NCBI GenBank assembly: GCA_043811955.1 | Contig: JBDRMQ010000092.1 | Location: 1-35,250 of the forward strand | DNA from: a bacterium | GTDB lineage: Bacteria > Margulisbacteria > WOR-1 > O2-12-FULL-45-9 | Direction: 5' to 3' | Length of the DNA: 35,250 nt | Shown here: positions 409 to 25,539 of the stretch, piece by piece | Layout of the letters: each line of letters starts with the position of its first letter | How positions within the stretch are numbered: the stretch's first letter is position 1 | Translations under genes and position numbers: made by a program | The notes under the pieces: model-generated | What the model was told of the DNA's origin: nothing | Database searches by the model: none | The model's input: only the letters and a program-made list of their open reading frames with translations

Positions 409-1551
409 ATGAAAAAGGTCAAGCGGGCGCACGATCTGCGGCAAACTAAAAAGCTTCTTTCGTTATTCCCTGTAACCGCTATTCTTGGCCCCAGGCAGTG
501 CGGCAAAACAACCTTGGCCGCAGAATTTAACGCTGATTACGCCTTTGACTTGGAAAACCCCCGCGATCTGGCCAAATTTAAAAACCCGCAGTTACTGCTC
601 GAGGAAATAGAAGGGACAATTATAATTGACGAAATCCAAAGAAAGCCAGACCTGTTCCCGCTTTTAAGATATCTTGTCGACACAAACAAAAAACAAAAAT
701 ATATAATCTTAGGCAGCGCCTCTACCGACCTGGTCAAACACAGCTCTGAAAGTTTGGCAGGGAGAATCGGCTATTATGAGCTTGGCGGCTTTGGCCTGCC
801 TGATATTGGGGTAAAAAATTACAAGCAGCTATGGCTAAGGGGCGGGCTGCCCCTCGCTTATTTAAATAGCGCCCCTGAAAAAAGCCTTCTCTGGAAAGAA
901 AACTATATAACAACTTTTTTAGAAAAAGACGTGCCGCAGCTTGGAATAAATATTCCCGCTAATACTTTACGAAAGTTTTGGATGATGCTGTCCGATTACC
1001 ACGGTCAAATAATTAATTATTCGGAATTGGGCAGGGCCTTTGGCGTCTCTGATACGACAGTAAAAAAATACATTGATATTTTAAGCGGGACCTTCATGGT
1101 TAGAATACTTCAGCCCTGGCACGCCAATATCAACAAGCGTCTGGTAAAAAATCCAAAAATATATTTGCGGGACAGCGGCCTTTATCATTGCTTGCTGACA
1201 ATTAGCAGCTGGGACGAGCTCTCCGGCTCAAGTAAACTCGGCGCCTCCTGGGAAGGCTTTGCTCTGGAGCAGGCAATAAAAGTCTTGAAGAAGCAGGCGC
1301 AGGAAGCTTTCTTTTGGAAAACGCACGCTGGCGCAGAGTTAGATCTTTTCTGGCAGGATAAGGGGAAGAACTGGGGCGTTGAGTTTAAATATAGCGATGC
1401 TCCTGCCGCGACAAAATCAATGCATGTTTCTATTGCTGATTTAGGGCTTGATCATCTCTGGGTAATTTATCCAGGAAAAGAAAGCTATAAAATCACACCA
1501 AAAATTACCGCAACCCCCTTAGCTCATTTCATCAAAATGTTTGAGGGTTAA
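409..1551 (+). CDS. AAA+ ATPase (AAA_14) with DUF4143 / PD-(D/E)xK-like C-terminal domain (COG1373 family), copy 1
   Basis: Walker A GPRQCGKT, Walker B IIIDEIQ, LAGR motif, mid-protein HTH-like TVKKYIDIL. C-terminal ELDLF...GVEFK is a nuclease-like D..E.K pattern. Confidence 0.85.
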   Translation: MKKVKRAHDLRQTKKLLSLFPVTAILGPRQCGKTTLAAEFNADYAFDLENPRDLAKFKNPQLLLEEIEGTIIIDEIQRKPDLFPLLRYLVDTNKKQKYIILGSASTDLVKHSSESLAGRIGYYELGGFGLPDIGVKNYKQLWLRGGLPLAYLNSAPEKSLLWKENYITTFLEKDVPQLGINIPANTLRKFWMMLSDYHGQIINYSELGRAFGVSDTTVKKYIDILSGTFMVRILQPWHANINKRLVKNPKIYLRDSGLYHCLLTISSWDELSGSSKLGASWEGFALEQAIKVLKKQAQEAFFWKTHAGAELDLFWQDKGKNWGVEFKYSDAPAATKSMHVSIADLGLDHLWVIYPGKESYKITPKITATPLAHFIKMFEG

Positions 1552-1581
1552 AAAGCCGGGGTTGTTCCGCCCCGGCTTTTT
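1550..1581. terminator. bidirectional rho-independent terminator between convergent genes
   Basis: A5 run, stem GCCGGGG (1555-1561), 8-nt loop, stem CCCCGGC (1570-1576), T5 run. The A- and T-flanks allow function on both strands. Confidence 0.7.
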
Positions 1582-1599
1582 GTAACCTAGCAAAAAAAC

Positions 1600-2112
1600 T
1601 TATCTTGGATCCATTCTTCTGCTGGGGGCGCGGCCAAATCTCATACCAAAAGATACATTAGATTTGTCAACAGAAAAGGAAACGTCTGCTGGGGGCGGGC
1701 CCAGGATACTTGCCATTTCAGAGAACAGCGCTGTGTACTCAGTATTGGAAAGCCCCTCTTTAATAATCCCCCAACTTGCCTTTGCCACATAATCACCCTT
1801 AGCCAAAGCCATTGAACTATCAAGGCCACCAAACTTTACGCGACCGCGGGAATCAGTATAAGTTGATATTATCAAAGAACCGTCACGCCCTGACGTTGTT
1901 TGGCGGTATATATCAACAACATACTTTACGTTACTATTACTAACCGCGGCACGACCATCAGGCTTTAGCACCATTATCACGATACTTGGCGCTACATTTA
2001 TCGCAACTTCTGTTGCGGCCTCTTCTGTTGCGGCCTGCTCTAGACCATAGGCGCCGCCAGCTATCATCGCGAACATTATGCTCACAACAAGGAACAAAGT
2101 TATTTTTCTCAT
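1600..2112 (-). CDS. secreted protein of unknown function (possible carboxypeptidase-regulatory/Ig-like beta-sandwich)
   Basis: Signal peptide MRKITLFLVVSIMFAMIAGGAYG. SD AAGGAGGTGA lies 8 nt upstream of the ATG. YTDSRGRVKFGGL...GDY weakly recalls the CarboxypepD_reg fold. Confidence 0.6.
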   Translation of the reverse strand: MRKITLFLVVSIMFAMIAGGAYGLEQAATEEAATEVAINVAPSIVIMVLKPDGRAAVSNSNVKYVVDIYRQTTSGRDGSLIISTYTDSRGRVKFGGLDSSMALAKGDYVAKASWGIIKEGLSNTEYTALFSEMASILGPPPADVSFSVDKSNVSFGMRFGRAPSRRMDPR

Positions 2113-2149
2113 TTATTCTATCACCTCCTTGTTTCTTTAAGATAAGCTT

Positions 2150-2181
2150 ATTCTACCCCCCCCCCCCCCATCCTTTTGCAA
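2150..2181 (-). promoter_or_regulatory. promoter of the 170-aa secreted-protein gene, with a homopolymeric G tract in the spacer
   Basis: The minus strand reads TTGCAA (2181-2176), aaggat, G14, TAGAAT (2155-2150). The spacer is 20 nt, 14 of them G. Confidence 0.55.
2156..2169. repeat. homopolymer C14 (G14 on the minus strand)
   Basis: Counted directly: C run 2156-2169. Confidence 0.9.
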
Positions 2182-2189
2182 GCGGAAAT

Positions 2190-2218
2190 TTGCGAAGTGA
2201 CAATCGCTCAGCTATAAT
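2190..2218 (+). promoter_or_regulatory. lpxB-type promoter, copy A (drives only the lpxB fragment)
   Basis: TTGCGA (2190-2195), 17 nt, TATAAT (2213-2218), 6 nt, ATG at 2225. Confidence 0.55.
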
Positions 2219-2224
2219 AACACC

Positions 2225-2347
2225 ATGAAAATCATGATCTCTGCGGGCGAAGTCTCCGGCGATGTACACGGCTCCCACTTGGTTCGCGAACTAAAAAAAC
2301 TCAATCCTAATATTTATTTCTTTGGCATGGGCTCAGAAAAACTGCTG
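2225..2347 (+). pseudogene. lpxB: lpxB 5' fragment (first 41 codons only), diverged allele
   Basis: MKIMISAGEVSGDVHGSHLVRELKKLNPNIYFFGMGSEKLL matches the lpxB N-terminus at 4672 in 37 of 41 residues. After that the ORF reads unrelated sequence to a stop at 2407. Confidence 0.8.
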
Positions 2348-2523
2348 TTATGCGGCAAACCAACCTGCCTTTTTAGCATATCACTTCTATTTTACGACGT
2401 AATATAGAAGCTGTGACGCATTATAGAAGTTGTCAAGCGCGGGATCAACAAAAAGACCGCGATTGAGATCGAGGCAGAAGACCTGATCCTGCCGGATATT
2501 CCGGAGTTAGGGATATAGCTAAT

Positions 2524-3486
2524 CTAGAAAACTGGGGGCCGACCGCCCAACTCAACAACTCGCTGCACCAGGCCTTCGGAAAACAAGTCAAAGAACTCAG
2601 CCTTAGCTTCACAAAATTCTCCCCAGCCAACTCGGGCGCCATCTAGATCAAGAAACTCACCCCGAGTCGAACCGTAGGGGGGAAGAACAACAGTTGCTTC
2701 TGCCCAATCAGTAGCACTAGTCGGAGCGTTGCCGTCTGCTGTATCTACCCTAATATAATTTTCATTAAGAAACAAGGAAAATTCAAGCAAAGTATTCCCC
2801 GCAAAATAGGGATTAATTGAAAACCCCTCTACAAAAACTGACCAAGCATTAAACTGGCCAAAGAACGCGATATTCTGCCTGCAGCGATCCATAAAGGTTC
2901 CCCCCGGGGTAGAATAAACGAACGCCTCGTCCATAAAAGCATTTCTAGGGTCAGAGACAATCCTGTCAAAAGCACTGGCAAGCAATCCGATTTTATTGCG
3001 AATGGATCGATGACAATTCCTAAGTTCAAGGAGGTTGTCTGCCGTAAAACTCGCGCCTGCAGGAACCAGCGCAGCCCTTCTGCGCACTTCCCATTCCCCA
3101 ATTGCAGCTGCCGGCAAAAGCTCATCAGAATAGTATCTATTTCTATACTTATTAGCTGTTTGATGACTTAAGACAGCTATTTCCCGTAACTCCATAACCA
3201 CCCTGGCAATATCACTATCAGTAACACCATACTTTTTACCAAGCACGTTAATATCAATTTTAACAAGCGGATAGTCTGGGAGGTCAACCTTCATGCCTAC
3301 GATTGGCTCTCTCCCTAGATCAAAGCTTTGCCTCGATGAAGCCCTTGGCACACCAAAGGCTCCTCCCGGGCTAACAACCTCTGTTCTTTTTATCGCGGCC
3401 GGAGCTGCAGCAACAAAAGACGCACCAACAAAGCCCAAACAAAAAACTATCACAATAACAACTGAAACAACCTTTACCTTAATCAT
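2524..3486 (-). CDS. secreted protein of unknown function (320 aa)
   Basis: N-terminal signal/anchor MIKVKVVSVVIVIVFCLGFVGASFVAAAPA. SD GGGGAGGAAA upstream. I recognise no domain. Confidence 0.6.
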   Translation of the reverse strand: MIKVKVVSVVIVIVFCLGFVGASFVAAAPAAIKRTEVVSPGGAFGVPRASSRQSFDLGREPIVGMKVDLPDYPLVKIDINVLGKKYGVTDSDIARVVMELREIAVLSHQTANKYRNRYYSDELLPAAAIGEWEVRRRAALVPAGASFTADNLLELRNCHRSIRNKIGLLASAFDRIVSDPRNAFMDEAFVYSTPGGTFMDRCRQNIAFFGQFNAWSVFVEGFSINPYFAGNTLLEFSLFLNENYIRVDTADGNAPTSATDWAEATVVLPPYGSTRGEFLDLDGARVGWGEFCEAKAEFFDLFSEGLVQRVVELGGRPPVF

Positions 3487-3521
3487 AATTATATTTCCTC
3501 CCCTTCACTAAGATAAGAGTA

Positions 3522-3556
3522 ATATTACCCCCCCCCCCCCCCCCATCCTTTTGCAA
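3522..3556 (-). promoter_or_regulatory. promoter of the 320-aa secreted-protein gene, with a homopolymeric G tract in the spacer
   Basis: The minus strand reads TTGCAA (3556-3551), aaggat, G17, TAATAT (3527-3522). The spacer is 23 nt. Confidence 0.55.
3528..3544. repeat. homopolymer C17 (G17 on the minus strand)
   Basis: Counted directly: C run 3528-3544. Confidence 0.9.
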
Positions 3557-3564
3557 GCGGAAAT

Positions 3565-3593
3565 TTGCGCTTCGCGAAAGTCTCGGCTATAAT
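3565..3593 (+). promoter_or_regulatory. lpxB-type promoter, copy B (drives the NTase cassette plus lpxB)
   Basis: TTGCGC (3565-3570), 17 nt, TATAAT (3588-3593), 6 nt, ATG at 3600. The 25 nt atccttttgcaagcggaaatttgcg are identical to copy A. Confidence 0.55.
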
Positions 3594-3599
3594 GTTGGC

Positions 3600-3758
3600 A
3601 TGTATTCCCAACAGAAAATCAAAAAAAGTTTGTTCCAGGTAGATATGCCAGTTGATCTCTTACTTTTCAAAGAAGCTCCTTTTAACAAAAGAAAAAATGT
3701 TTGGGGGAGCGTTCAATACAAAATCTTTCAAAATGGAAAGTTAGTTTATGAAAAATGA
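3600..3758 (+). CDS. small ORF (52 aa), possibly a remnant of a nucleotidyltransferase/antitoxin
   Basis: Hand translation: MYSQQKIKKSLFQVDMPVDLLLFKEAPFNKRKNVWGSVQYKIFQNGKLVYEK. The ATG sits exactly 6 nt after the -10 box. It is below the ORF-track length cutoff. Confidence 0.3.
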   Translation: MYSQQKIKKSLFQVDMPVDLLLFKEAPFNKRKNVWGSVQYKIFQNGKLVYEK

Positions 3759-3969
3759 AAATGAGTTAATGCGAGGGGAACGAAAAATCGCGCGAAAAAA
3801 ACCGGGCAACAAATTTATTGATGAGGAAAGAGAATGGTTAAATCTTTCGCCTAGCCAGCGTATGCTAGAAACAACAAAGCTATGGCAATTATACCTAGCA
3901 TTAGGAGGCAGCCTTGACCCAGAACCCAATCCTCAAAGTCCTTTCTACTTTCAAAAAGCACAAAGTTAA
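3748..3969 (+). CDS. small basic protein (73 aa), putative partner of the downstream nucleotidyltransferase
   Basis: The ORF overlaps the small ORF upstream by 11 nt and the downstream gene by 56 nt. Basic N-terminus. No domain recognised. Confidence 0.4.
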   Translation: MKNENELMRGERKIARKKPGNKFIDEEREWLNLSPSQRMLETTKLWQLYLALGGSLDPEPNPQSPFYFQKAQS

Positions 3970-4675
3970 AGCGCTGTTGATCGGCGGGCAGGCTTGTATT
4001 ATCTATGGCGCAGCCGAATTCAGCCGCGACTCTGACTTTGTTCTGCTGTGCGAGCAAGAAAATCTTGAGCGCCTTAATAAGGCATTGAAGGCATTAAAGG
4101 CCGAATTAATTTATGTTCCCCCGTTAGAAATAGGTTACTTGCAGAAAGGGCATGCTTGTCATTTTAGATGCAAGGCAAAGGATGTTGCAGGGCTACGCAT
4201 TGATATAATGGCCAAGATGAGGGGCTGCGATCCTTTTGAGAAGTTATGGAAACGCAGGAAAAAAGTATCGGTAGAAGGCAATGGTATTATAGATATCATT
4301 GGCCTACGAGACCTAGTTAAAAGCAAAAAGACAAAACGCGACAAGGATTGGTTAATGCTTAAAAATCTAGTTGAGAATGACATTGTGTTAAATAAAGAGC
4401 ACCCTGCTGAAGATCAGATAAAGTGGTGGTTACTGGAAAGCAGACATCCTGAATCTCTCGTTCGCTTAGCCACGGAATATTCAAAGATTAGCAATGAATG
4501 CTTAACTTATCGGCCACTTTTAGCTGCTGCTACTGAGAGAGAGAAACAAAAACTTGCTTCTTTGCTTCACGAAGAAGAATTAGCAGAGAGGAAAAGGGAC
4601 GCCGATTATTGGTCTCCTCTAATCAAAGAATTAGAAACGCTCCGCCATCTGGCAAGCAAACGGGGACAGCAATGA
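3914..4675 (+). CDS. Pol-beta superfamily minimal nucleotidyltransferase-fold protein (253 aa)
   Basis: NTase signature GG-x13-DSD (LIGGQACIIYGAAEFSRDSDFVL). The LRDLVKSKKTKRDKDW helix is typical of these NTases. AGGAGG lies 5 nt before the TTG start at 3914. The stop overlaps the lpxB start (ATGA at 4672-4675). Confidence 0.6.
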   Translation: MTQNPILKVLSTFKKHKVKALLIGGQACIIYGAAEFSRDSDFVLLCEQENLERLNKALKALKAELIYVPPLEIGYLQKGHACHFRCKAKDVAGLRIDIMAKMRGCDPFEKLWKRRKKVSVEGNGIIDIIGLRDLVKSKKTKRDKDWLMLKNLVENDIVLNKEHPAEDQIKWWLLESRHPESLVRLATEYSKISNECLTYRPLLAAATEREKQKLASLLHEEELAERKRDADYWSPLIKELETLRHLASKRGQQ

Positions 4676-5778
4676 AAATCATGCTCTCTGCCGGAGAGGT
4701 TTCCGGCGATGTCCACGGCTCTCATTTAGTCCGCGAGCTTAAAAAGCTTAAGCCAGAAGCATACTTCTTTGGTATGGGCTCAGAAAAACTTTTGGCTGAG
4801 GGCGTAGCCGTTAAAGTTGACATTACCAAGCGCGGCACAATTGGCATTTTTGAAGCCCTGCCTAATGTTCTCCCTGTTTTTCTCGCCTATAAAAAAATGG
4901 TTGGCCTGATGAAGTCAGAAAAACCAGATATGCTTATTCTCGTTGATTCCCAAGGGATTAACATGCCCCTAGCCAAAGCTGCAAAAAAGCTAGGGATTAA
5001 AACAGTCTACTACATCGCCCCGCAAGAGTGGCTTTGGGGAACACCCAAGGGCGTTAAGAAGGTTTCCGAAACAATTGATTTAATTATTTCCATTTTTGAG
5101 AAAGAACACGAAACCTACCAGCAAGCTGGAGGAAACTCAATCTATTTCGGTCATCCCCTACTAGACATTGTTAAAGGGGACAGCCAGTTTGCAAAAGGTG
5201 AAGGGCCCACGATTGCCCTGTGCCCAGGAAGCAGAACCCAGGAGATCAAAGGCTTACTCCCTATTCTTTTAAAAGCTGGGGAGTTGCTCAAAAAAGAACT
5301 TCCAAAGGCAGAGTTTATAATCCCCGCGGCGTCGACAGAAATGATCAAGAAAATTTTTAATTATATTGGCGAGGATTTTCGGCCTAAAGCTATCATTGGC
5401 CATACCTACGACATCCTGGCCAGCGCAGACCTCGCGCTTTGTGCCTCAGGCACAATTAATCTTGAAGCTTCAATTTTGGGAACACCAAATATCATGGTTT
5501 ATAAGCTCTCTCCCCTGACCTACTTTGTCGGCAAACATATTCTAAAAATTGGCGAGAAATTAAAATATTTTAGTATGCCTAATATGTTGCTTGATGAGCG
5601 GGCTATTCCAGAACTCGTTATGGAACAAGCTGAACCAAAAATAATTGCTCAAGAAGCCCTTTCTATTATTATTGATCAAGAACGACAAGCCAAGATGAAG
5701 GCCTCTTTTGAAAAACTGCGAACAAAGCTTGGCCAGCCTGGCGTGATTGAGAAAGTAGCCAGGGAGATTTTGAAATAG
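4672..5778 (+). CDS. lpxB: lipid-A-disaccharide synthase
   Basis: N-terminal MKIMLSAGEVSGDVHGSHLVRELK is the LpxB hallmark, and the length and C-terminus are GT19-like. I chose the ATG at 4672 because the lpxB fragment at 2225 starts at the same residue. Confidence 0.9.
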   Translation: MKIMLSAGEVSGDVHGSHLVRELKKLKPEAYFFGMGSEKLLAEGVAVKVDITKRGTIGIFEALPNVLPVFLAYKKMVGLMKSEKPDMLILVDSQGINMPLAKAAKKLGIKTVYYIAPQEWLWGTPKGVKKVSETIDLIISIFEKEHETYQQAGGNSIYFGHPLLDIVKGDSQFAKGEGPTIALCPGSRTQEIKGLLPILLKAGELLKKELPKAEFIIPAASTEMIKKIFNYIGEDFRPKAIIGHTYDILASADLALCASGTINLEASILGTPNIMVYKLSPLTYFVGKHILKIGEKLKYFSMPNMLLDERAIPELVMEQAEPKIIAQEALSIIIDQERQAKMKASFEKLRTKLGQPGVIEKVAREILK

Positions 5779-5834: not shown

Positions 5835-6977
5835 ATGATCTCAAGATTCCTGGCCTTAAGCAAGATTAAGCGCTCTCTCTTCCTGTTTGGTCCTCGGCAG
5901 GTAGGCAAAACCTACCTAATAAAGAACACCCTAGCTCCCGACATTTTCATAAACCTCCTAAAGCAAGAAGAATACTTAAGATATGCTGGAACCCCCCAGC
6001 TGCTGCGACAGGAAGTCAAGGCAAACATGCTAGTAGTTATAGACGAAATCCAGCGTTGCCCCTCCCTGCTCAACGAGGTCCAATTAATAATTGATGACAA
6101 TCCCTCTGTTCAATTTATCCTGACCGGCTCCAGCGCGCGGAAACTGCGGCGCCACGGGGTTAACTTGCTTGGTGGCAGAGCGATTGTCCTGCACCTTTTT
6201 CCGTTTACCGCTGATGAATTAGCAGATCTCTTTAACCTTGAGGAAGCATTGCTCTTTGGCGCCCTCCCCAGCATCGCGCTAGAAAAGGAAAAAGAGAGCA
6301 AGGTCCTCCTGCTGAAAAGCTATGTCGAAACCTATCTAAAAGAAGAAGTCCAACAGGAAGCCCTAACCAGGAACGTGCCGGCATTTGCCCGCTTTCTGGA
6401 ACTGGCAGCTCACGAAAACGGCAACATCCTCAATTTTCAGGCACTGTCCAGGGAAGTCGGCGTTACCTCAAAGACCATAAAAGAGTATTTTCATATCCTT
6501 GAGGATACTTTGCTTGGCTTTTTCCTTAATCCCTTCACCAAGTCCGAGCGGAAAAGAGTAGTCAGCCATCCAAGATTTTATTTTTTCGACCTAGGGGTCG
6601 TTGCTGCCTTAAGGCACGAACTATCAAGCAACTTAACGGCTGGAACACCCGCCTATGGCAGGGCCTTTGAGCACTGGGTAATTTTGGAAATAAAAAGGCT
6701 AATAGATTACAAAGGACTCGACTGGAAAATAAGCTTTTTTAGGACCAGCGACGGCGCAGAAGTTGATTTGCTTTTAGAAACAGGGAAAGAGCTCTGGGCA
6801 ATTGAAATAAAATCTTCCTCAGAGCCACGCGCGAGCGATCTCCGCGGATTAAAAAGCTTTTTGCGCGACCATCAGGTCGCTAAGTCCTTTTGCGTTTGCC
6901 AAACACCAAGGCCATACGCAACAGATGGCATTGAATTCATTCCATGGAAAGATTTTCTCAAGTTATTAAAACCTTAA
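5835..6977 (+). CDS. AAA+ ATPase (AAA_14) with DUF4143 / PD-(D/E)xK-like domain, copy 2
   Basis: GPRQVGKT, VVIDEIQ, TGSSARKLRR, LLGGR, C-terminal AEVDLLL...AIEIKSS. Confidence 0.85.
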   Translation: MISRFLALSKIKRSLFLFGPRQVGKTYLIKNTLAPDIFINLLKQEEYLRYAGTPQLLRQEVKANMLVVIDEIQRCPSLLNEVQLIIDDNPSVQFILTGSSARKLRRHGVNLLGGRAIVLHLFPFTADELADLFNLEEALLFGALPSIALEKEKESKVLLLKSYVETYLKEEVQQEALTRNVPAFARFLELAAHENGNILNFQALSREVGVTSKTIKEYFHILEDTLLGFFLNPFTKSERKRVVSHPRFYFFDLGVVAALRHELSSNLTAGTPAYGRAFEHWVILEIKRLIDYKGLDWKISFFRTSDGAEVDLLLETGKELWAIEIKSSSEPRASDLRGLKSFLRDHQVAKSFCVCQTPRPYATDGIEFIPWKDFLKLLKP

Positions 6978-7042: not shown

Positions 7043-7603
7043 ATGGTGAGAGCACAATTAACTAAATTAACTACACATATCCCTTGGTTTTCGGCTGGGG
7101 AGCGCGTTTTCACCACCGCCAGATTTCAACTCAAAAGAAATAGCTGCGTTTGGATGGCCCTGGGATTTAAACATTCTTCTGCTTCTGTGAATGCAGCGAT
7201 TCTAAGAGGTTTAAGCGGGGATTATTATTTCGCATCTATTAGCCCTGACGAGATAAATCTTACCAAGCTAGACCAAGGGACATCAACGATTGGGCGAAAC
7301 AGAAACTGTAAAATTACAATCCCAGACACCCATCGTTTTAACCCTGTTGTTTCAAATCATCATCTGGAAGTTGATTTGTCTGCTGAAGGAATATCGATTA
7401 AAGAACCCAAAGAAACATCCTATGGAACAATGCTTTTTCCTAAGGAACCCCCTTGCGCCAAGGCTTTGTTTGAAGCCTTGGCCATTGAAACCGCCGATAC
7501 AATCGTGCAAGGAACTCCTTTTGTTTCTCCCCCACCAGAAATAGAGTACACAACCCAGTCAAAAAAAGGGGGGGCCGAGAGAGCTTACTCTAGAGGATGT
7601 TGA
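7043..7603 (+). CDS. FHA-like domain protein (186 aa)
   Basis: TIGRNRNCKITIP...VVSNHHLEVDL...ETSYGT follows the FHA pattern GR...SxxH...(N/Y)GT. It is paralogous to the N-terminus of the 8431 gene. GGAGG at 7035-7039. Confidence 0.55.
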   Translation: MVRAQLTKLTTHIPWFSAGERVFTTARFQLKRNSCVWMALGFKHSSASVNAAILRGLSGDYYFASISPDEINLTKLDQGTSTIGRNRNCKITIPDTHRFNPVVSNHHLEVDLSAEGISIKEPKETSYGTMLFPKEPPCAKALFEALAIETADTIVQGTPFVSPPPEIEYTTQSKKGGAERAYSRGC

Positions 7604-15237: not shown

Positions 15238-16602
15238 CTACTTGCCTATGCAAAATTGATCAAAAATCGTGTTAATAATTTCATCAGAAACGATCTCCCC
15301 TGTCACCTCGCCCAAGGCCACAATCGATTCCTTAAGATCAACCGCAATAAACTCGGGAGAGAGCTTTTTTGAAACTGTCTCAGCTGATTTAACAAGTGAT
15401 CCTTGCGCCCGGGATAAACATTCTTTATGGCGCGAATTGATTATAACAGAAGAGCTGCTTTCCTGTCCAAGATTTTTTTGGACCTCATTAAAAATGCCAA
15501 GCGAAAGCTCGTGAACCCCCGCCCCTGTTAAAGCGGAAACATCAAAAAAAATCTTCCCCAACCCCTTGTCATTCAAGCGTTTCGGAAGATCTGACTTGTT
15601 TAAAACAACGACCCCCGGCTTCCCTCTTGCTTTATCCAAAACCATTTTGTCTAACGCGTCAATTTCTTGGGAGCGGTCTAGAACAATTAAAACAAAATCA
15701 GCTGCAGCCAGCTCTTTTTCTGTTCGCTCAATCCCAGAGCCCTCTAGCCGATCTTTTGTCTGCCTCAGCCCAGCCGTATCAATAATCCGTAGCGGTAGAC
15801 CATTAATATTAATCAACTCTTCAATCGCATCTCGAGTGGTCCCAGGAACATCTGTAACAATAGCCCTCTCTTCTTTTAAAAAAGCGTTGAGCAGGCTTGA
15901 CTTACCAACATTTGGCTTCCCAATTATAGCAGTGGATAACCCTTCTCGATAAATTTTGCCTGATGAAGCAGAGGCCAAAAGCTGGGAAACCTCTGAGATA
16001 ATCGCGTTTATTCCCAGCTGAAAGCGGCTGTAATCAAGCGGGGGAAGATCATCGGAAAAATCAAGGGCCCCCTCAAGCTCTGCCTGAAGATTAACCAAGC
16101 GCAGCCTAAGATTGTTAACTGTTTTTGAGAGCCTTCCCTCAAGCTGCTGCAAAGCAAAGCCTGCCCCTTTAGCTGTCGGCGCCTGAATAAGGGCCAGCAC
16201 TGCCTCAGACTGAGAGAGATCGAGCTTCTTGTTGAGAAAAGCACGTTTTGTAAACTCCCCGCGCTGGGCTAGCCGAGCCCCCTGAGCAAGGACTAACGCA
16301 AGAACCTGCTGCAGCACAGCCTGCCCCCCATGACAATAAATTTCAGCAACATCTTCACCAGTAAATGATTTTGGGGATTGCATATAACAAGCCATTGCCT
16401 CGTCAATGTGTTTCCCATTGTCGGGGTCAACAAGCAAGCCGTGAAGCATTTGATGAGATTTGATTTCTTGCTCGCAGGAAGGCTTATAGATTTTTTCGAG
16501 AAGGGGCTTTGCGCCATCACCGCTAATCCTGACAATCCCTACCCCGCCAATACCAATTGGGGTAGCAATTGCAGTTATTGTATCATCGGCAAATTGTTTC
16601 AT
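15238..16602 (-). CDS. mnmE: tRNA uridine-5-carboxymethylaminomethyl modification GTPase
   Basis: DTITAIATP, G1 GKPNVGKSS, DTAG, and C-terminal CIGK. I prefer the ATG at 16602, which has GGGGAGA 9 nt upstream, over the TTG at 16611. Confidence 0.92.
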   Translation of the reverse strand: MKQFADDTITAIATPIGIGGVGIVRISGDGAKPLLEKIYKPSCEQEIKSHQMLHGLLVDPDNGKHIDEAMACYMQSPKSFTGEDVAEIYCHGGQAVLQQVLALVLAQGARLAQRGEFTKRAFLNKKLDLSQSEAVLALIQAPTAKGAGFALQQLEGRLSKTVNNLRLRLVNLQAELEGALDFSDDLPPLDYSRFQLGINAIISEVSQLLASASSGKIYREGLSTAIIGKPNVGKSSLLNAFLKEERAIVTDVPGTTRDAIEELININGLPLRIIDTAGLRQTKDRLEGSGIERTEKELAAADFVLIVLDRSQEIDALDKMVLDKARGKPGVVVLNKSDLPKRLNDKGLGKIFFDVSALTGAGVHELSLGIFNEVQKNLGQESSSSVIINSRHKECLSRAQGSLVKSAETVSKKLSPEFIAVDLKESIVALGEVTGEIVSDEIINTIFDQFCIGK

Positions 16603-16617
16603 GTGAAACAATCTCCC

Positions 16618-17235
16618 CTATTTGGGGGCAACAATCAACCGACGTTCTCGCCCCTCACCCTTACTATAAGATGTCACCTCAGGATTATCCTTTAAGTACA
16701 TATGAACAATTCTGCGATCCGCAGGGGTCATTGGAGGAAGAACTTTTTCCTGGCCAGTCTGCTGAACCTCGTCAGCAACGTCTTTGGCCAAGCGCTCAAG
16801 AGAGTTGTTTCTCTTGTCTTTGTACCCATCAGCATCAATGTTCACCCTAACCCGATCGTCGTGCAATCGGCTTACGATTGAACCAACCAAAATTTCAAGA
16901 GAGCGCAATGTTGCCCCATCTTTGCCAATTATTCGCCCCATATCCTCGCCCTTAATGTCAAGCTTAATATATTCCCCATCAATAGAGGCCTCAACCATAG
17001 AGACAAAGGTCATCTTGTCTAAAATATCTTGTAAAGTATCCTTTGCGTCGTCTTGCTTACTCCCCTTTAACACAACCTCAACCTCAGCCTCTTCTCCGCC
17101 AATCATCCCCAGCATGCCAGCCTTTCCCTTAGACAAAACAACAACCTTGGCCTGCTCCCTCTCTCCCCCCAACACTTTTAAAGCTGCCTCAACCGCATCG
17201 TCAACATTTTTCCCTTTCATTACTATCCGTTTCAT
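16618..17235 (-). CDS. jag: Jag/KhpB RNA-binding protein (Jag_N, KH, R3H)
   Basis: N-terminal KGKNVDDAVEAALKVLG, KH-like GRIIGKDGATL, R3H-like PMTPADRRIVH. Conserved position after yidC. Confidence 0.85.
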   Translation of the reverse strand: MKRIVMKGKNVDDAVEAALKVLGGEREQAKVVVLSKGKAGMLGMIGGEEAEVEVVLKGSKQDDAKDTLQDILDKMTFVSMVEASIDGEYIKLDIKGEDMGRIIGKDGATLRSLEILVGSIVSRLHDDRVRVNIDADGYKDKRNNSLERLAKDVADEVQQTGQEKVLPPMTPADRRIVHMYLKDNPEVTSYSKGEGRERRLIVAPK

Positions 17236-17251
17236 ATGAAACCCCCTTGAA

Positions 17252-18184
17252 TTAAGCCTTACGCATTATATAATACTGTTGCATAGCAGCAACAGCATTT
17301 GACACAAGCCAATAAAGCTGGACCCCGGCTGGGAAATTCCAGCAAATAAAAACAAGAAAAACAGGCATAATCATGGCCATCGTCTTAGCTTGGTCTCCAG
17401 ACCCAGCCGCAGGCATTGACTTCTGCATAAAAAAAGTAGTTATGCCGACCAAGAAAGCAAGCAAGGAAATAGGGCCAAACGGGGTCTCGACCCGATCAGG
17501 TTTTGCCAACGTGTTTGTTTCATCCCAAGCAGCAACAATTGCCCCTACATCATCTTCGGACAAACCCTTAACAACCTTTGCTAAACCCTCGCTAGCTTTC
17601 TTCAAATCATCAATATTCTTCACATTAATCCCCCATAAAACATCCTTAAGCATCTTATCCCCTACCTCATGGGTTAGATTCCAGACAAACCGCTCTTTCC
17701 TCGCTGAAGAAGATTGCTCATCCAAAATAATTAATTTAGCCGCCTCTAATTTCTTAATTAATTGCTCAGAGCCAAACGCACTGCCATTCACTCTTCCGTT
17801 AATCCACAGAAACCTTGTATTACTCAAGGGATCAGAGGTAATTCCCAAAAAGGCTGTGCTTTGAAAAGCCCAAAAAAGAGCCAAAAAAAACGGGATCTTT
17901 AAAAGCATTGGCAAACACCCGCCTAGAGGATTTATCCCCTCAGATTTATAAAGGCCCATCGTCTCCTTTTGCAATTCTTTTGGATCATCCTTATATTTTT
18001 CCTGCAATGCCTTTAACTTTGGCTGCATCTTCTGCATGGCTCCCATTGATTTTATAGAAGCTAAAGTTAAAGGATAAAGAGCCAAATTAACAGCAATGGT
18101 CAACCAAATAATCCCCCATCCATAACCACCAAAAAAAGAAAAAAATCTTAACGCATCAATCATCATGTCGGATAATATTTTCAT
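17252..18184 (-). CDS. yidC: membrane protein insertase YidC (short form, with an unusual ~100-aa loop insert)
   Basis: GINPLGGCLP, FLWI and LYWLVSN motifs. GGAGG lies 6 nt before the ATG at 18184 (MKILSD). Confidence 0.88.
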   Translation of the reverse strand: MKILSDMMIDALRFFSFFGGYGWGIIWLTIAVNLALYPLTLASIKSMGAMQKMQPKLKALQEKYKDDPKELQKETMGLYKSEGINPLGGCLPMLLKIPFFLALFWAFQSTAFLGITSDPLSNTRFLWINGRVNGSAFGSEQLIKKLEAAKLIILDEQSSSARKERFVWNLTHEVGDKMLKDVLWGINVKNIDDLKKASEGLAKVVKGLSEDDVGAIVAAWDETNTLAKPDRVETPFGPISLLAFLVGITTFFMQKSMPAAGSGDQAKTMAMIMPVFLVFICWNFPAGVQLYWLVSNAVAAMQQYYIMRKA

Positions 18185-18325
18185 TACAAACCTCCACAAA
18201 TTGTTTCACCCGCCTACCGGCAGGCGGGCATGAGACAAGACAATGTCGCACTCAAACAAATTACAGCAACAAAAACTCAGTCTTTTTATTAAAAAAACAA
18301 CAAAAAAGCCAGTGTCGAATAATTA

Positions 18326-18529
18326 TTATGGGACAGGGTCAAGCCCGCCAATAAAAAACTGATTGCACTTAATTATGCGTTTTAAGGCTAAAAATCCGCC
18401 ATACGTAAGTCCATGCTTTTCGATCGCCTCTTCTGTGTAATGAGAACAAGACGGGAAATACCTGCAAGCTGGCGCTCCAAACTTTAATTTTCTATATAAA
18501 AAGAATAACAATCTAATTATGCGACGCAT
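18326..18529 (-). CDS. yidD: membrane protein insertion efficiency factor YidD
   Basis: CRYFPSCSHYTEEAIEKHG signature. Confidence 0.85.
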   Translation of the reverse strand: MRRIIRLLFFLYRKLKFGAPACRYFPSCSHYTEEAIEKHGLTYGGFLALKRIIKCNQFFIGGLDPVP

Positions 18530-18531
18530 CT

Positions 18532-18870
18532 CTAGATAACACCTATTTTCCTCAAGCAGCTATCAAGTGCTACTTGAGCTTTGTTCGAATCTTTACCAAT
18601 CATTTGTGTCGACGGAAAAACAGCAACGTCAAGGTTGTTTTTAATCTTGGGCAAAACAGTGGCAAAGGCTGCGCCAACAATTCGCCTAAGCCTATTTCTA
18701 ACATTGGCTTTGCCAAGTTTTTTAGACGTAACAACAACCAGCCGCGAGATCTCTCTGTGATTGTCTTTGGCGACGAGATAGAGTAGGGGGTGTCTCTGTT
18801 GATACTGTTTCTGTTTTAAAGTTTGTCTAATCTCAGACTCGCGAGAAAGCCGTGCTCTTTTAGGGAGCAA
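18532..18870 (-). CDS. rnpA: ribonuclease P protein component
   Basis: Basic protein immediately after rpm[13 protein letters not shown] and RNRLRR motifs. TTG start overlaps the rpmH end by 11 nt. Confidence 0.8.
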
Positions 18871-18997
18871 GGCGCGCTCTGCCCTTTTTCCGCCGATTCT
18901 TTAAAACTCGCCTGCCGCCCTTGGTCTTTGTTTTGGCGCGAAAGCCGTGCGTTTTCTTCCGTCTCCTCTTATGAGGCTGAAAAGTTCTTTTTACCAT
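18860..18997 (-). CDS. rpmH: 50S ribosomal protein L34 (45 aa; not in the ORF track)
   Basis: Hand translation of the minus strand: [45 protein letters not shown]. Confidence 0.9.
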
Positions 18998-19004
18998 GAT
19001 CATA

Positions 19005-19033
19005 ATTATATTTTATTTATAATATTGTGTCAA
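19005..19033 (-). promoter_or_regulatory. consensus promoter of the rpmH operon, leaderless-type
   Basis: The minus strand reads TTGACA (19033-19028), 17 nt, TATAAT (19010-19005), 7 nt, ATG at 18997. Confidence 0.65.
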
Positions 19034-19091
19034 GCAATTGTTTAGTAAGTATTCAGAGTTCTGGAAACAGAACAGACACATTATTTAGTCC

Positions 19092-19129
19092 TTGCATATA
19101 ACAACCGACATTGCTATAATTTCTCCACA
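19092..19129 (+). promoter_or_regulatory. candidate dnaA promoter abutted by a DnaA box
   Basis: TTGCAT (19092-19097), 17 nt, TATAAT (19115-19120), immediately followed by TTCTCCACA (19121-19129; 8 of 9 to TTATCCACA). Confidence 0.5.
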
Positions 19130-19183
19130 TCGTAGCTCGCCTGCCCATCAGCAAGGCAGCTTGTTGCTTGTAAATTCGGCGCT

Positions 19184-19294
19184 TGTGGATATCATGTTGA
19201 TAAAGATGTTAATAATTATTCGTAAGCCATGATTTTTAGCTTGGCACAAGGGTTTTATTAAATACAGAAAAAGTTATTAACAGCCTGTGGATAA
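19184..19294. promoter_or_regulatory. DnaA boxes upstream of dnaA
   Basis: tgtggatat at 19184-19192 (reverse complement ATATCCACA) and tgtggataa at 19286-19294 (perfect TTATCCACA on the minus strand). Confidence 0.6.
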
Positions 19295-19300
19295 ATTAAA

Positions 19301-20662
19301 ATGAATGATCAAGAAGAGCTATCCCAACTTTGGGATAGCGTAATACCAAACCTTGAAAAGAGTTTAAATAAACCAATTTATGAAACTTTGTTGTCATCAA
19401 CAAAGCCCCATCAAATTGAGGGGGGGGTGCTGCAAATCGCAGTGCCAAGCCAAGTGGTGAAAGATTGGCTATCAAAGCATTGCGTAACCTTATTAGAGCT
19501 GGAAGTTCGCCAAGCTAATCCAAATGTTTCTTCTGTAAATTTTTTTGTTGGGCAAGCAGATCTTTTTACCACGCCCATCCTTGAGCAAACAGCTTATCGG
19601 GTCGAGGGGCCAAGCAAGCCAGCGGTTGCTTTTTTAAATCCTCGTTATACTTTTGATCACTTTGTAGTAGGGCATGGCAACCGCTTTGCCCATGCGGCCT
19701 CTCTGGCCGTAGCAGAGGCGCCAGCCAAGGCCTACAATCCATTATTTTTATATGGTGGGGTAGGGCTGGGTAAAACACATTTAATGCAAGCCATCGGCCA
19801 CCATGTTGCTTCTTTAAACGCTCAGGCCAAGATCTTATACATTTCCTCAGAAACATTTACTAATGAAATGATCAATTCAATTAGGGACGATAAGACAGGC
19901 CAGTTTAGAAATAAATATCGCAACATTGATGTTTTATTGGTTGATGATATTCAATTTTTAGCTGGTAAAGAGCGGACCCAAGAAGAGTTTTTCCATACAT
20001 TCAATGCTTTATACGAAGCAGAAAAACAAATTGTTGTTAGCTCGGATCGTCCGCCAAAAGAGATACCAACGCTTGAGGAGCGGCTCAGATCACGCTTTGA
20101 ATGGGGCTTAACCGCCGACATCCAGGCACCTGACTTTGAAACAAGAATTGCTATTCTAAGAAAAAAAGCAGAGCAAAGCAATATCGCTATTTCCAATGAG
20201 ATCCTGACCTACATTGCTAGCCAGGTTGCCTCAAATATCCGAGAACTTGAGGGGGCTTTGATCCGGGTGGTAGCCTTTGCCTCTCTCAACAATGCTGAAA
20301 TAAACTCTGATTTAGTTGATAATGTTCTTCGGGACATTATCAAAACAAAAAACAAAACCAATAATAGTCTTTCTATTGATTTAATTAAGAAAGTAACAGC
20401 GCAGCATTACGGCATTCGGCTTGATGATCTATCAGCCAAAATCAGGACAAAGGAGATTGCCTTAACTAGACAAGTGGCTATGTATTTAAGCCGAGAGTTA
20501 ACTCGTTCCTCGCTGCCTAAAATCGGGAGTGAGTTTGGCGGCCGGGACCACACCACCGTGATGCATGCTTGTGAAAAAATAAAAGTTGGTTTGAAAAACG
20601 ATCAGTCAATCATTGAAGCGATAAAAAAGATTTCGGGAAAATTAAAAAGTTATTCGCCCTAG
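19301..20662 (+). CDS. dnaA: chromosomal replication initiator protein DnaA
   Basis: Walker [11 protein letters not shown], Walker [11 protein letters not shown]-terminal DNA-binding region [11 protein letters not shown]. Confidence 0.95.
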
Positions 20663-20871
20663 CTTGTGAATATCTGTTAATAACTATGTGGACATAATAG
20701 TTATTAACATTTTATTAAAGTTGGTTGTGGAAAAAAAAATAGTCTTTTTGTGTTAGGAGCTATAAATTCTTTGCTTGTCCACATTTACACAGGGACTACT
20801 ATTACTAACTTTTATATATTATAATAATAAGGCAGAAAAAATCAGTGGATAAACAGGAGGACTAAAACAGA
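20663..20871. other. candidate oriC (DnaA-box cluster plus AT-rich unwinding region) in the dnaA-dnaN spacer
   Basis: Boxes at 20665-20673 (tgtgaatat), 20687-20695 (tgtggacat), 20726-20734 (tgtggaaaa), 20775-20783 (ttgtccaca) and 20844-20852 (agtggataa). AT-rich tttatatattataataataa at about 20811-20830. Confidence 0.6.
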
Positions 20872-22014
20872 ATGGAGTTTACAATAAATAAGAGAGATCT
20901 CCAAAATGGTGTTTCCGCGGTCGAAAAAATTGTTACTACCAGAAGTACGCTCCCGATTATTGGTTATCTTCTTTTTGATGTAAAAAAGAAAGGGGTTAAG
21001 ATTTCGGCTAATAATCTTGAGATGGGAATTGAGTTTGGCATTGCCTCTAATGTAACCAAGGAGGGAACTGTTTTGGTCCCAGCAAAAACCTTGAGTGGGA
21101 TTGTCTCTAAATTGCCTGATGCAGATGTCTCCTTTAAATTGAACGAGAAGGGGACTATCAAAATTTCTTTTAATCAATCTAATTTTAATGTCCACACCCT
21201 GCCGCCTGACGAATTTCCTGCTTTAGCTAAAGTAAAAGATGGTAAATCATTCCTAATTAATTCAGTCATTTTTTCTTCCATGATTAAACAGACTATTTTT
21301 TCTGTTTCCAGCAGTGAGGATAAACATGTTTTATCAGGTGTTTTACTTGAATTTGGCAAAAGTTCTCGCTCTGGTGATAGTTCTAATTTTCGGATGGTCT
21401 CAACTGATGGCTATCGCTTAGCTAAGAGGGGAGAGAGCTTGGACTTGAAAGCCGATGTTAAAGGGGCTGTTATTGTTCCAGCCAAGGCACTACAAGAAAT
21501 TGCTAGGATCATTGATTTAGAAAAAGGCGAAGGCCCGATTGAAATTACCTTTGCTAATGACCAAATCTCTTTTAAGTATAATGAGGTTTATTTAGTTTCT
21601 CGAGTAATCCAGGGACAATTTCCTGACTATCGTCAAGTCCTGCCCAAAAAGAGCGCGACGAAAATAGAGATAAATAGGAAGCTATTATTAGCTTCATCTG
21701 AACGGGCAGCTGTAATTGCGGCAGGTTCAGCCAACATTGTGCGCTTTGATGTTAGGGATGATAAGCTGCGTTTATTTGCCAGCACCCCTGATGTTGGGAC
21801 GGTTGATGAAGTTTTAGACGCGAAAATAACTGGGCAAGGGACGGCTCAAATCGCGTTTAATATTCGTTTAATAACAGATGTTTTAAAAGTTCTTGAAGGG
21901 GAAAATATAATTATTGAATTAAGCGAAGCCCTGGGGCCTGGCCTTATTCAGGGTGAGGGTGAGGCTAATTATTTTTATATAGTTATGCCGATTAAAACCC
22001 AAGAGACCTCTTAA
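20872..22014 (+). CDS. dnaN: DNA polymerase III beta sliding clamp
   Basis: Position after dnaA, length of 380 aa, motifs LPIIGYLLF, MVSTDGYRLA and GPGLI. GGAGG SD. Confidence 0.93.
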   Translation: MEFTINKRDLQNGVSAVEKIVTTRSTLPIIGYLLFDVKKKGVKISANNLEMGIEFGIASNVTKEGTVLVPAKTLSGIVSKLPDADVSFKLNEKGTIKISFNQSNFNVHTLPPDEFPALAKVKDGKSFLINSVIFSSMIKQTIFSVSSSEDKHVLSGVLLEFGKSSRSGDSSNFRMVSTDGYRLAKRGESLDLKADVKGAVIVPAKALQEIARIIDLEKGEGPIEITFANDQISFKYNEVYLVSRVIQGQFPDYRQVLPKKSATKIEINRKLLLASSERAAVIAAGSANIVRFDVRDDKLRLFASTPDVGTVDEVLDAKITGQGTAQIAFNIRLITDVLKVLEGENIIIELSEALGPGLIQGEGEANYFYIVMPIKTQETS

Positions 22015-22298
22015 TGGCAGAGAAGTTGGCTGATGTTTTAGGCGGGATGGATTTTGGGGTGGGGGGAGCGATCAAGATTTGCGGCTTGCTCGCGCTTTGG
22101 CCTGACGTAGTTGATGAAAAAGTTTGCCGAAATACCGAGGCGGTTAAGATTAATAACAAGGTATTATATGTTTCAACTACTTCGCCAGCTTGGGCCCAGG
22201 AATTAACTTTTTTAAAGATAGCAATTATTAAAAAGTTTAATGATTTAGCAGGAAAAGAAGTTATTGTTGATATAAAATTCTCACCAAGGTTAGTTTAA
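22014..22298 (+). CDS. DUF721 (DciA-like/RNA-binding) protein
   Basis: The pattern LWPDVVDEKV...NKVLYVSTTSPAWAQEL...IIKKFN is typical of DUF721, in the dnaN-gyrB position. 1-nt overlap with the dnaN stop. Confidence 0.75.
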   Translation: MAEKLADVLGGMDFGVGGAIKICGLLALWPDVVDEKVCRNTEAVKINNKVLYVSTTSPAWAQELTFLKIAIIKKFNDLAGKEVIVDIKFSPRLV

Positions 22299-22313
22299 GG
22301 AGGGAAAAATAAG

Positions 22314-24281: not shown

Positions 24282-24304
24282 CCGCAAAGATATGTAAAAT
24301 GGAC

Positions 24305-24332: not shown

Positions 24333-24338
24333 GGAGGC

Positions 24339-25478: not shown

Positions 25479-25484
25479 CCACGT

Positions 25485-25531: not shown

Positions 25532-25539
25532 GTGACCAA

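What the first reader, a model, noticed from the sequence alone, without database searches (positions are those of the whole stretch)
2150..2181. G14 tract inside the -35/-10 spacer of a secreted-protein gene promoter (phase-variation architecture), copy A
The minus strand reads TTGCAA-aaggat-G14-TAGAAT, followed by a 37-nt leader with a perfect SD (AAGGAGGTGA) and the 170-aa signal-peptide protein. The homopolymer makes the spacer 20 nt, and loss of 3 G would give the optimal 17. Homopolymers in promoter spacers are the established slipped-strand on/off or rheostat switch of Neisseria porA/opc and Bordetella fim. I am not aware of reports of this outside classical pathogens, so finding it in what appears to be an environmental lineage would be notable.
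Basis: partly seen in the sequence, partly recalled or inferred. Interest (0 to 1): 0.7.

Follow-up and report, generated by a model that had tools for sequence, protein, structure and literature searches.

The report
Poly-G promoter switch in Saganbacteria
An uncultivated groundwater-type bacterium (Candidatus Saganbacteria) has 14 and 17 G's in a row between the two halves of the promoters of two secreted-protein genes. Its relatives have the same layout with other run lengths, so this looks like the slippage-driven on/off switch known from pathogens, though switching itself is untested.

Summary
On the minus strand, 2150-2181 reads TTGCAA-aaggat-G14-TAGAAT. It is followed by a Shine-Dalgarno site and a 170-aa signal-peptide gene. 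A second copy sits at 3522-3556 with an identical 25-nt upstream module, G17 and TAATAT, in front of a 320-aa signal-peptide gene. These are the only G/C runs longer than 8 in 35 kb; composition predicts about 3.5e-5 runs of 14 or more.

The contig is an NCBI MAG of the Saganbacteria/WOR-1 lineage. Relatives carry the same layout in front of unrelated secreted-protein genes:
- G9, spacer 15.
- G10, spacer 16.
- G13/14, spacer about 22.
- G14 or more, next to a scaffold gap.
- An interrupted, "locked" version with a 16-nt spacer.
- A distant homologue of the 170-aa protein with G6 and G10 promoters.

Five related contigs end at the tract.

The best reading is transcriptional phase variation, or a rheostat, by slipped-strand mispairing in the promoter spacer. 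Both copies here would be in a predicted OFF or weak state (spacers 20 and 23). Neither switching nor the transcription start site could be tested.

This is a new member of a known kind, in an unexpected environmental lineage.

The parts
2176..2181 (-). -35-like hexamer TTGCAA of copy A
   Evidence: The same hexamer (or TTGACA) sits upstream of the tract in every related locus. TTGCAA-17-TATAAT also occurs upstream of gene 33902-34681.
2156..2169 (-). G14 homopolymer (C14 on the + strand) filling most of the 20-nt spacer. Putative slippage-prone switch element.
   Evidence: Expected number of runs of 14 or more is 3.5e-5.
2150..2155 (-). -10-like hexamer TAGAAT, directly abutting the tract
   Evidence: TAGAAT or TAATAT abuts the tract in the window (both copies), L003 (both loci) and L006.
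2121..2130 (-). Shine-Dalgarno AAGGAGGTGA, 8 nt before the ATG at 2112
1600..2112 (-). 170-aa secreted protein gene with an N-terminal signal peptide. Probably a transthyretin-like beta-sandwich. It is an ORFan apart from one 29%-identical homologue.
   Evidence: Model pLDDT 59. Transthyretin and hydroxyisourate hydrolase are the top fold matches.
1550..1576 (.). GC-rich stem-loop with T/A runs between the convergent DUF4143 ATPase gene and the 170-aa gene (bidirectional terminator-like)
   Evidence: Read directly: gccgggg-cggaacaa-ccccggc-ttttt
2170..2194 (-). 25-nt module CGCAAATTTCCGCTTGCAAAAGGAT, shared 100% with copy B (3545-3569)
3522..3556 (-). Copy B: TTGCAA (3556-3551), aaggat, G17 (3544-3528), TAATAT (3527-3522). 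Spacer 23 nt.
2524..3486 (-). 320-aa signal-peptide ORFan driven by copy B
2190..2218 (+). Back-to-back divergent promoter TTGCGA-17-TATAAT, 6 nt before the ATG at 2225. The counterpart in copy B is TTGCGC-17-TATAAT at 3565-3593, before the ATG at 3600.
   Evidence: It is conserved in L014/L015.
2225..2407 (+). Duplicated 5' fragment of lpxB, about 123 nt homologous and then divergent. It is a pseudogene marking the cassette junction.

Best explanation
This is a sigma-70-type promoter whose -35/-10 spacer consists mostly of a long G run.

Such runs gain and lose units by slipped-strand mispairing during replication. This changes the spacer length, and with it promoter strength, stochastically and reversibly. 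The cell lineage therefore switches or dials expression of the downstream secreted protein.

In this assembly both copies are predicted to be off or weak:
- Copy A: G14, spacer 20.
- Copy B: G17, spacer 23.
- About G10-G12, giving a spacer of 16-18, would be on.

The promoter module sits in a variable cassette island next to lpxB. In related Saganbacteria this island carries different, non-homologous secreted-protein genes behind the same kind of promoter.

Shown: the sequence anatomy, its non-randomness, its conservation, and the length differences among relatives.

Inferred: the transcription start site, hypermutability in this organism, the effect of length on transcription, reversibility and adaptive use.
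For: 1. Anatomy. TTGCAA-6 nt-G14-TAGAAT is followed 37 nt later by the ATG, with a strong SD between them, then a signal-peptide ORF and a terminator-like hairpin.

2. Not chance. These are the only two G/C runs longer than 8 in 35 kb. The expected number of runs of 14 or more is 3.5e-5. Both lie in the same 25-nt module.

3. Recurrence in relatives. The lineage was identified through LpxB, 72-81% identical.
- L003: TTGACA-aaaact-G10-TAGAAT, spacer 16, before a 208-aa gene.
- L006: TTGACA-aaaaat-G9-TAGAAT, spacer 15, before a 306-aa NHL-repeat protein gene.
- L003 9549-9562: G14 or more, then TAATAT, before a 140-aa gene. This locus is syntenic with the window.
- L007/L008/L009: TTGCAA-tgatggca-G13/14.
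- In all of these the G run is on the sense strand of a signal-peptide gene.

4. Selection pattern. The pre-tract bases differ (aaggat, atagct, tgatggca, aaaact, aaaaat). The -35 hexamer, the tract and the abutting -10 hexamer are all kept.

5. Calibration of the functional spacing.
- The paralogous NHL gene in L006 has a homologous promoter with an interrupted tract, TTGACA-aaaaGGGGAGAGGGAG-TAAAAT, spacer 16.
- Sigma-70-like sites with 16-18-nt spacers are enriched in the part of the window scanned (15300-35250): 52 found against 30.7 +/- 6.3 in shuffles.
- These include TTGCAA-17-TATAAT 32 nt before a gene start.

6. The only full-length homologue of the 170-aa protein among 1.84 billion representatives is P0124, 29% identical. 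Its contig carries two tandem paralogue starts, TTGACA-...G6...-TATACT and TTGACA-...G10-TATTAT.

7. Assemblies tend to fail at the long tracts. L007, L008 and L009 end in the tract, L014 and L015 start at it, and L003 has an N15 gap beside it. This fits length heterogeneity.

8. Precedent.
- An 11G tract between -35 and -10 of porA gives high expression; 10G gives 2-fold and 9G 13-fold lower surface expression (PMC3639595).
- Poly-G length in Treponema pallidum tpr/tp0126/tprL promoters controls transcription (PMC7864442).
Against: - No reads were available, so within-population length variation is unmeasured.
- There is no transcription start site or expression data.
- The consensus lengths are 3 and 6 units above the optimum, so several steps are needed to reach ON. 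Homopolymer lengths in short-read assemblies are also error-prone.
- Contig breaks at G runs can come from sequencing failure alone. Some of the broken contigs may be re-assemblies of the same reads (JGI versus ENA).
- The related loci are partly homologous modules, so they are not fully independent observations.
- The island contains gene remnants (an lpxB fragment and an MNT-like remnant), so some decay is occurring there.
Confidence: 0.66

Rival explanations
1. Decayed or runaway tract. The promoter was once functional, but the tracts have expanded beyond the useful range in a degenerating island. The two genes are effectively silenced, and the tract has no current regulatory role.
For: - Spacers of 20 and 23 nt lie well outside the 16-18 nt seen for other promoter-like sites.
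- The island holds an lpxB 5' fragment and a truncated MNT-like ORF.
- Both cargo proteins are ORFans.
Against: - Both ORFs are intact, with SD sites and signal peptides.
- The hexamers and uninterrupted tracts are retained across several species. Tracts without selection usually pick up interruptions, as the L006 paralogue shows.
- Relatives hold near-optimal lengths, G9 and G10.
Confidence: 0.15
2. The tract regulates, but not through -35/-10 spacing. One option is that it separates an activator site from the -10, as at Bordetella fim promoters. Another is that the promoter is effectively -35-independent and the G run acts through DNA structure (G-quadruplex or i-motif) or on the back-to-back divergent promoter.
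For: - The tract abuts the -10, so G occupies -14 and gives a partial extended -10.
- A divergent promoter lies 20 nt upstream of the tract.
- The long lengths (14, 17) fit a simple spacing model poorly.
Against: - A good -35 hexamer (TTGACA or TTGCAA) is kept immediately upstream in every locus, although the sequence around it differs.
- G9, G10 and G14 cannot form a three-tetrad quadruplex.
- The interrupted paralogue keeps a 16-nt spacing.
- No conserved inverted repeat beyond TTGCAA was seen across modules.
Confidence: 0.12
3. Sequencing or assembly artefact, for example two-colour-chemistry poly-G or a mis-join.
For: Several related contigs end in the G run.
Against: - In the window, L003 and L006 the tracts are internal, flanked by unique sequence on both sides, and set in a coherent promoter-gene context.
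- They recur at syntenic positions in independent assemblies from JGI, ENA, NCBI and Logan.
Confidence: 0.03

Closest known systems
Neisseria meningitidis porA (poly-G) and opc/fetA (poly-C) promoter-spacer phase variation
   Same: A homopolymeric G/C tract lies between the -35 and -10 hexamers of a sigma-70 promoter for a surface protein. A 17-nt spacer needs about G11, and expression is graded with length (PMC3639595).
   Different: - The lineage is an uncultivated environmental one (Saganbacteria), not a host-restricted pathogen.
- The tracts here are longer (14, 17) and away from the optimum.
- The cargo genes are small ORFan secreted proteins.
- The module is duplicated and associated with different cargo genes in a cassette island.
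- No experimental evidence of switching exists.
Treponema pallidum tprE/G/J, tp0126 and tprL poly-G promoters
   Same: Several paralogous promoters in one genome each carry a poly-G tract of variable length that controls transcription of secreted or outer-membrane protein genes. Long tracts mean OFF (PMC7864442).
   Different: In T. pallidum the permissive length is 8 or fewer for tprE/G/J. The organism is an obligate pathogen. Tract variability there was measured directly by fragment-length analysis.
Bordetella pertussis fim2/fim3 poly-C promoters (from my own knowledge)
   Same: A poly-C/G run of about 13-15 lies upstream of the -10 and sets fimbrial gene expression through its length.
   Different: There the tract separates a BvgA activator site from the -10. 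Here a canonical -35 hexamer is present and no activator site is evident.
Haemophilus influenzae hifA/hifB TA-repeat switch (from my own knowledge)
   Same: The repeat lies in the promoter spacer within a divergent, back-to-back promoter region.
   Different: That repeat is a dinucleotide lying in the overlapping spacers of both promoters. Here the tract lies only in the minus-strand promoter's spacer, and the plus-strand promoter lies beside it.

Membership tests
SSR-mediated transcriptional phase variation (homopolymer in promoter spacer; porA/opc type) | An uninterrupted homopolymer much longer than composition predicts | tested here: met
   G14 and G17. Expected number of runs of 14 or more is 3.5e-5. 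No other G/C run exceeds 8.
SSR-mediated transcriptional phase variation (homopolymer in promoter spacer; porA/opc type) | The tract lies between recognisable -35 and -10 hexamers, at a proper distance from an SD and start codon | tested here: met
   TTGCAA-20 nt-TAGAAT, then 37 nt to the ATG with AAGGAGGTGA between. The same geometry holds in 5 related loci. This is sequence-level evidence only.
SSR-mediated transcriptional phase variation (homopolymer in promoter spacer; porA/opc type) | The transcription start site is mapped downstream of that -10 | not testable with these tools
   No transcript data were available.
SSR-mediated transcriptional phase variation (homopolymer in promoter spacer; porA/opc type) | Tract length differs among strains or loci while the flanks are conserved | tested here: met
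   Lengths of 9, 10, 13/14, 14, 14 or more, and 17 occur across paralogous and orthologous modules in 4 genomes. The distant homologue's contig has 6 and 10.
SSR-mediated transcriptional phase variation (homopolymer in promoter spacer; porA/opc type) | Length heterogeneity within a population, with high-frequency reversible switching | not testable with these tools
   No reads were available. The only evidence is indirect: 5 contigs break at the tract and 1 scaffold has a gap beside it.
SSR-mediated transcriptional phase variation (homopolymer in promoter spacer; porA/opc type) | Expression depends on tract length | not testable with these tools
   Support is only indirect. The interrupted paralogue has a 16-nt spacer, and other promoter-like sites in the window have spacers of 16-18 nt.
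SSR-mediated transcriptional phase variation (homopolymer in promoter spacer; porA/opc type) | The controlled genes encode surface or secreted products | tested here: met
   All 7 cargo proteins have a K/R-rich N-terminus followed by a hydrophobic stretch (KD 2.5-3.5), against 0.9-1.2 for cytoplasmic controls.
Activator-spacing type (Bordetella fim) | An activator binding site replaces the -35 upstream of the tract | tested here: inconclusive
   A -35-like hexamer is present. No conserved extra motif is shared across modules. The absence of an activator cannot be shown.
Promoter G-quadruplex element | Enough G's for four runs of at least 3 separated by loops (15 nt or more) | tested here: not met
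   G9, G10 and G14 are too short, and only G17 would qualify.

The most novel reading that the evidence does not exclude
A sub-clade of Saganbacteria keeps a dedicated contingency island beside lpxB, and at other sites. In it, unrelated lineage-specific secreted proteins are each placed behind a portable poly-G promoter module. Under this reading, bet-hedging of the cell surface by simple-sequence repeats is an evolved strategy in free-living or episymbiotic groundwater bacteria, presumably driven by phage or grazer pressure rather than by an immune system.
Probability: 0.35. Interest if true: 0.7.

Novelty: new member of a known kind. Interest (0 to 1): 0.55.

Why it matters
Repeat-driven contingency loci are textbook features of host-adapted pathogens and are usually explained as immune evasion. 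A conserved, multi-copy poly-G promoter switch in an uncultivated environmental phylum would show that the same strategy is selected outside hosts. It would mark a set of ORFan secreted proteins as likely targets of phage or predator pressure. It would also explain recurrent assembly breaks in these MAGs. The idea is directly testable with existing metagenomic reads.

Tried and rejected
- I scanned for TTGCAAAAGGATGGGGGGGG. GTDB representative genomes gave 0 hits. JGI metagenome contigs gave 2 hits with unrelated flanks, judged to be chance.
- Exact-protein look-ups of the 170-aa and 320-aa products found nothing on record.
- Word-indexed homologue searches for both found only the proteins themselves.
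- Pfam found nothing for either cargo protein, even at E up to 1. A PDB sequence search with the 320-aa protein gave only E = 0.038 noise.
- Rfam on 1400-4800 gave only a sub-threshold rimP-leader match at the terminator. No known RNA element explains the region.
- The single-sequence AlphaFold model was unusable at pLDDT 38. The two-sequence model reached only pLDDT 59, so the transthyretin-like fold is tentative.
- A cluster look-up found a second MAG with an identical 186-aa protein. Its contig starts inside the DUF4143 gene at 5835-6977, well downstream of both tracts, so it does not reach them.
- I considered a sigma-54 reading of TTGCA and rejected it, because there is no GG element at the right distance (read).
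- I considered TTGCAA, which is a palindrome, as a plus-strand -35 and rejected it. The matching -10 is poor and is not conserved in copy B.

Full report
**1. Observation**

The minus strand of 2150-2181 reads TTGCAA (2181-2176), aaggat, G14 (2169-2156) and TAGAAT (2155-2150). Next come 37 nt that contain AAGGAGGTGA (2130-2121), and then the ATG at 2112 of a 170-aa ORF. The spacer is 20 nt, and G11 would make it 17. A GC-rich hairpin with a T-run follows the stop codon at about 1550-1576.

The window is 44% G+C. Its G/C runs stop at length 8, with two exceptions: C14 at 2156-2169 and C17 at 3528-3544. Composition predicts 3.5e-5 runs of 14 or more.

It then has G17, TAATAT, an SD and a 320-aa ORF at 2524-3486. 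That spacer is 23 nt.

**2. Context**

The window is a whole 35,250-bp contig of an NCBI MAG labelled only 'bacterium'. It carries yidC-jag-mnmE, dnaA, dnaN, gyrB and gyrA, so it includes the replication-origin region. It also carries lpxB, folD, glycine-cleavage genes and three DUF4143 AAA ATPase paralogues.

LpxB is 72-81% identical to proteins of Candidatus Saganbacteria / WOR-1 / Margulisiibacteriota MAGs.

Both tract-controlled proteins have typical signal peptides and no Pfam domain. In the 5.8-billion-protein collection they matched only themselves.

A full HMMER scan of 1.84 billion representatives found one full-length relative of the 170-aa protein: P0124, 175 aa, 29% identical. A two-sequence AlphaFold model (pLDDT 59) resembles transthyretin-like beta-sandwiches. 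That fold assignment is tentative.

Each tract region is back-to-back with a plus-strand promoter:
- Copy A: TTGCGA-17-TATAAT at 2190-2218, ending 6 nt before the ATG at 2225.
- Copy B: TTGCGC-17-TATAAT at 3565-3593, ending 6 nt before the ATG at 3600.

In copy A this ATG opens a roughly 123-nt duplicated 5' fragment of lpxB. The region therefore looks like two tandem cassettes.

**3. Relatives**

The ancestral arrangement lpxC-fabZ/lpxA-(methyltransferase)-lpxB has no cassette and no long tract. This is seen in L010, L013, L016, L018, L019 and L020.

Four genomes with LpxB 79-100% identical to the window's have insertions with the same promoter design:

| Locus | Promoter (sense strand of the gene) | Spacer | Downstream gene |
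|---|---|---|---|
| Window, copy A | TTGCAA-aaggat-G14-TAGAAT | 20 | 170 aa |
| Window, copy B | TTGCAA-aaggat-G17-TAATAT | 23 | 320 aa |
| L003 9549-9562 (syntenic; upstream side from L014/L015) | TTGCAA-atagct-G14 or more-TAATAT | 20 or more | 140 aa |
| L007/L008/L009 | TTGCAA-tgatggca-G13/14-(AGAAT in L008) | about 22 | off the contig |
| L003 5618-5627 | TTGACA-aaaact-G10-TAGAAT | 16 | 208 aa |
| L006 5269-5277 | TTGACA-aaaaat-G9-TAGAAT | 15 | 306 aa, NHL repeats |

In every case the G's are on the sense strand of a signal-peptide gene. The cargo proteins are not homologous to one another.

The bases between the -35 and the tract differ among modules. The -35 hexamer, the uninterrupted tract and the abutting -10 hexamer are all kept.

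The L006 paralogue of the NHL gene (49% identical) has a homologous promoter in which the tract is broken up: TTGACA-aaaaGGGGAGAGGGAG-TAAAAT, spacer 16. This is what a fixed-ON derivative should look like. It also calibrates the working spacer at 16-17 nt.

Other promoter-like sites in the part of the window scanned (15300-35250) use 16-18 nt and are enriched (52 against 30.7 +/- 6.3 in shuffles). They include TTGCAA-17-TATAAT 32 nt before a gene start.

The contig of the distant homologue P0124 has two tandem gene starts: TTGACA-aattgt-G6-aag-TATACT and TTGACA-aatctgtgt-G10-TATTAT. The association of this protein family with G-tract promoters therefore extends to a homologue that is only 29% identical.

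**4. Assembly behaviour**

L007 and L009 end inside the tract, and L008 ends 5 nt past it. L014 and L015 start at its edge, and L003 has an N15 gap beside it. This fits length heterogeneity. It could equally come from sequencing failure at long G runs, and some of these contigs may be re-assemblies of the same reads. I count it as weak support only.

**5. Mechanism**

The best explanation is transcriptional phase variation, or a rheostat, by slipped-strand mispairing in the spacer. It works like meningococcal porA, where an 11G tract between -35 and -10 gives high expression, 10G about 2-fold lower and 9G about 13-fold lower (PMC3639595). It also works like the multi-copy poly-G promoters of Treponema pallidum tpr, tp0126 and tprL (PMC7864442).

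With spacers of 20 and 23 nt, both promoters here are predicted to be off or weak in the consensus genome. The G9 and G10 promoters of relatives would be near ON.

Status of the evidence:
- Shown: anatomy, non-randomness, conservation and inter-genome length differences.
- Inferred: the start site, mutability in this organism, the dependence of expression on length, reversibility and benefit.

**6. Rivals**

- A decayed, runaway tract in a degenerating island: 0.15.
- A tract acting other than through -35/-10 spacing, such as activator spacing, DNA structure or an effect on the divergent promoter: 0.12.
- An artefact: 0.03.

A sigma-54 reading and a G-quadruplex reading were rejected on sequence grounds. 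Rfam shows no RNA element.

**7. Novelty**

The mechanism is a known kind. The host lineage, the multi-locus conservation and the cassette-island setting are new as far as I could check. No paper in the held library holds both 'Saganbacteria' and 'phase variation', and the top-ranked papers from a broader six-term search held neither lineage name.

I rate this as a new member of a known kind, with interest 0.55.

Noticed in passing
window 3522-3556 (tract 3528-3544): A second copy of the same promoter module has G17 (spacer 23) and TAATAT, and drives a 320-aa signal-peptide ORFan at 2524-3486. The two copies differ in tract length by 3.
   Followed up: yes
window 2225-2407: This is a duplicated 5' fragment of lpxB. 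About 123 nt are homologous to the full lpxB at 4672-5778, about 83% identical to it by my estimate from the alignment, and the sequence then diverges. It starts 6 nt after the divergent TATAAT. It looks like a scar of cassette duplication or recombination.
   Followed up: partly
window 2190-2225, 3565-3600 and 24305-24339: In three places a good -10 hexamer ends 6 nt before an ATG (2225, 3600, 24339). This suggests leaderless transcripts in this lineage. The arrangement is conserved in L014/L015.
   Followed up: no
window 3600-3758; L011 202-880: The 52-aa ORF after copy B's divergent promoter resembles the start of contig L012, immediately upstream of its HEPN gene. At the same position L011 has a nucleotidyltransferase (MNT) gene upstream of HEPN and lpxB. 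The ORF is probably a remnant of a toxin-antitoxin gene.
   Followed up: partly
L006 7343-7440: The paralogous NHL-repeat gene has a homologous promoter in which the G tract is interrupted (GGGGAGAGGGAG), with a 16-nt spacer. It looks like a 'locked' derivative of the switch.
   Followed up: yes
L003 12445-12453; L014 2916-2924; L015 2918-2926: A G9 run lies inside the 5' end of a roughly 294-aa ORF downstream of a DUF4143 gene (ATG...aca GGGGGGGGG acc). It is a possible frameshift-type contingency tract in the coding sequence. It has the same length in all three assemblies.
   Followed up: no
L017 1-763: Tandem paralogues of the 170-aa protein family each have their own TTGACA-G-tract promoter (G6 interrupted, and G10), separated by a terminator hairpin. 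This is a very low-coverage contig of unknown lineage.
   Followed up: partly
window 409-1551, 5835-6977 and 24339-25478: Three paralogous AAA_14/DUF4143 ATPase genes are present. Two of them flank the variable island and may act as recombination anchors. Relatives also have DUF4143 genes beside their cassettes (L003, L006, L011).
   Followed up: no
window 7043-7603: A second NCBI MAG (Candidatus Margulisiibacteriota, MBU0501956.1) encodes an identical 186-aa FHA-like protein. Its 4.7-kb contig starts inside the neighbouring DUF4143 gene and does not reach the tracts.
   Followed up: partly
window 17252-28574: This stretch is the origin-region gene set: yidC, then an rnpA/rpmH-sized ORF at 18532-18870 (assigned by position and size only, not searched), dnaA, dnaN, gyrB and gyrA. 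A perfect TTGACA-17-TATAAT lies at 19033-19005. G8 at 19420-19427 lies inside dnaA and C8 at 26633-26640 inside gyrA, both in frame. They would serve as homopolymer error controls.
   Followed up: no
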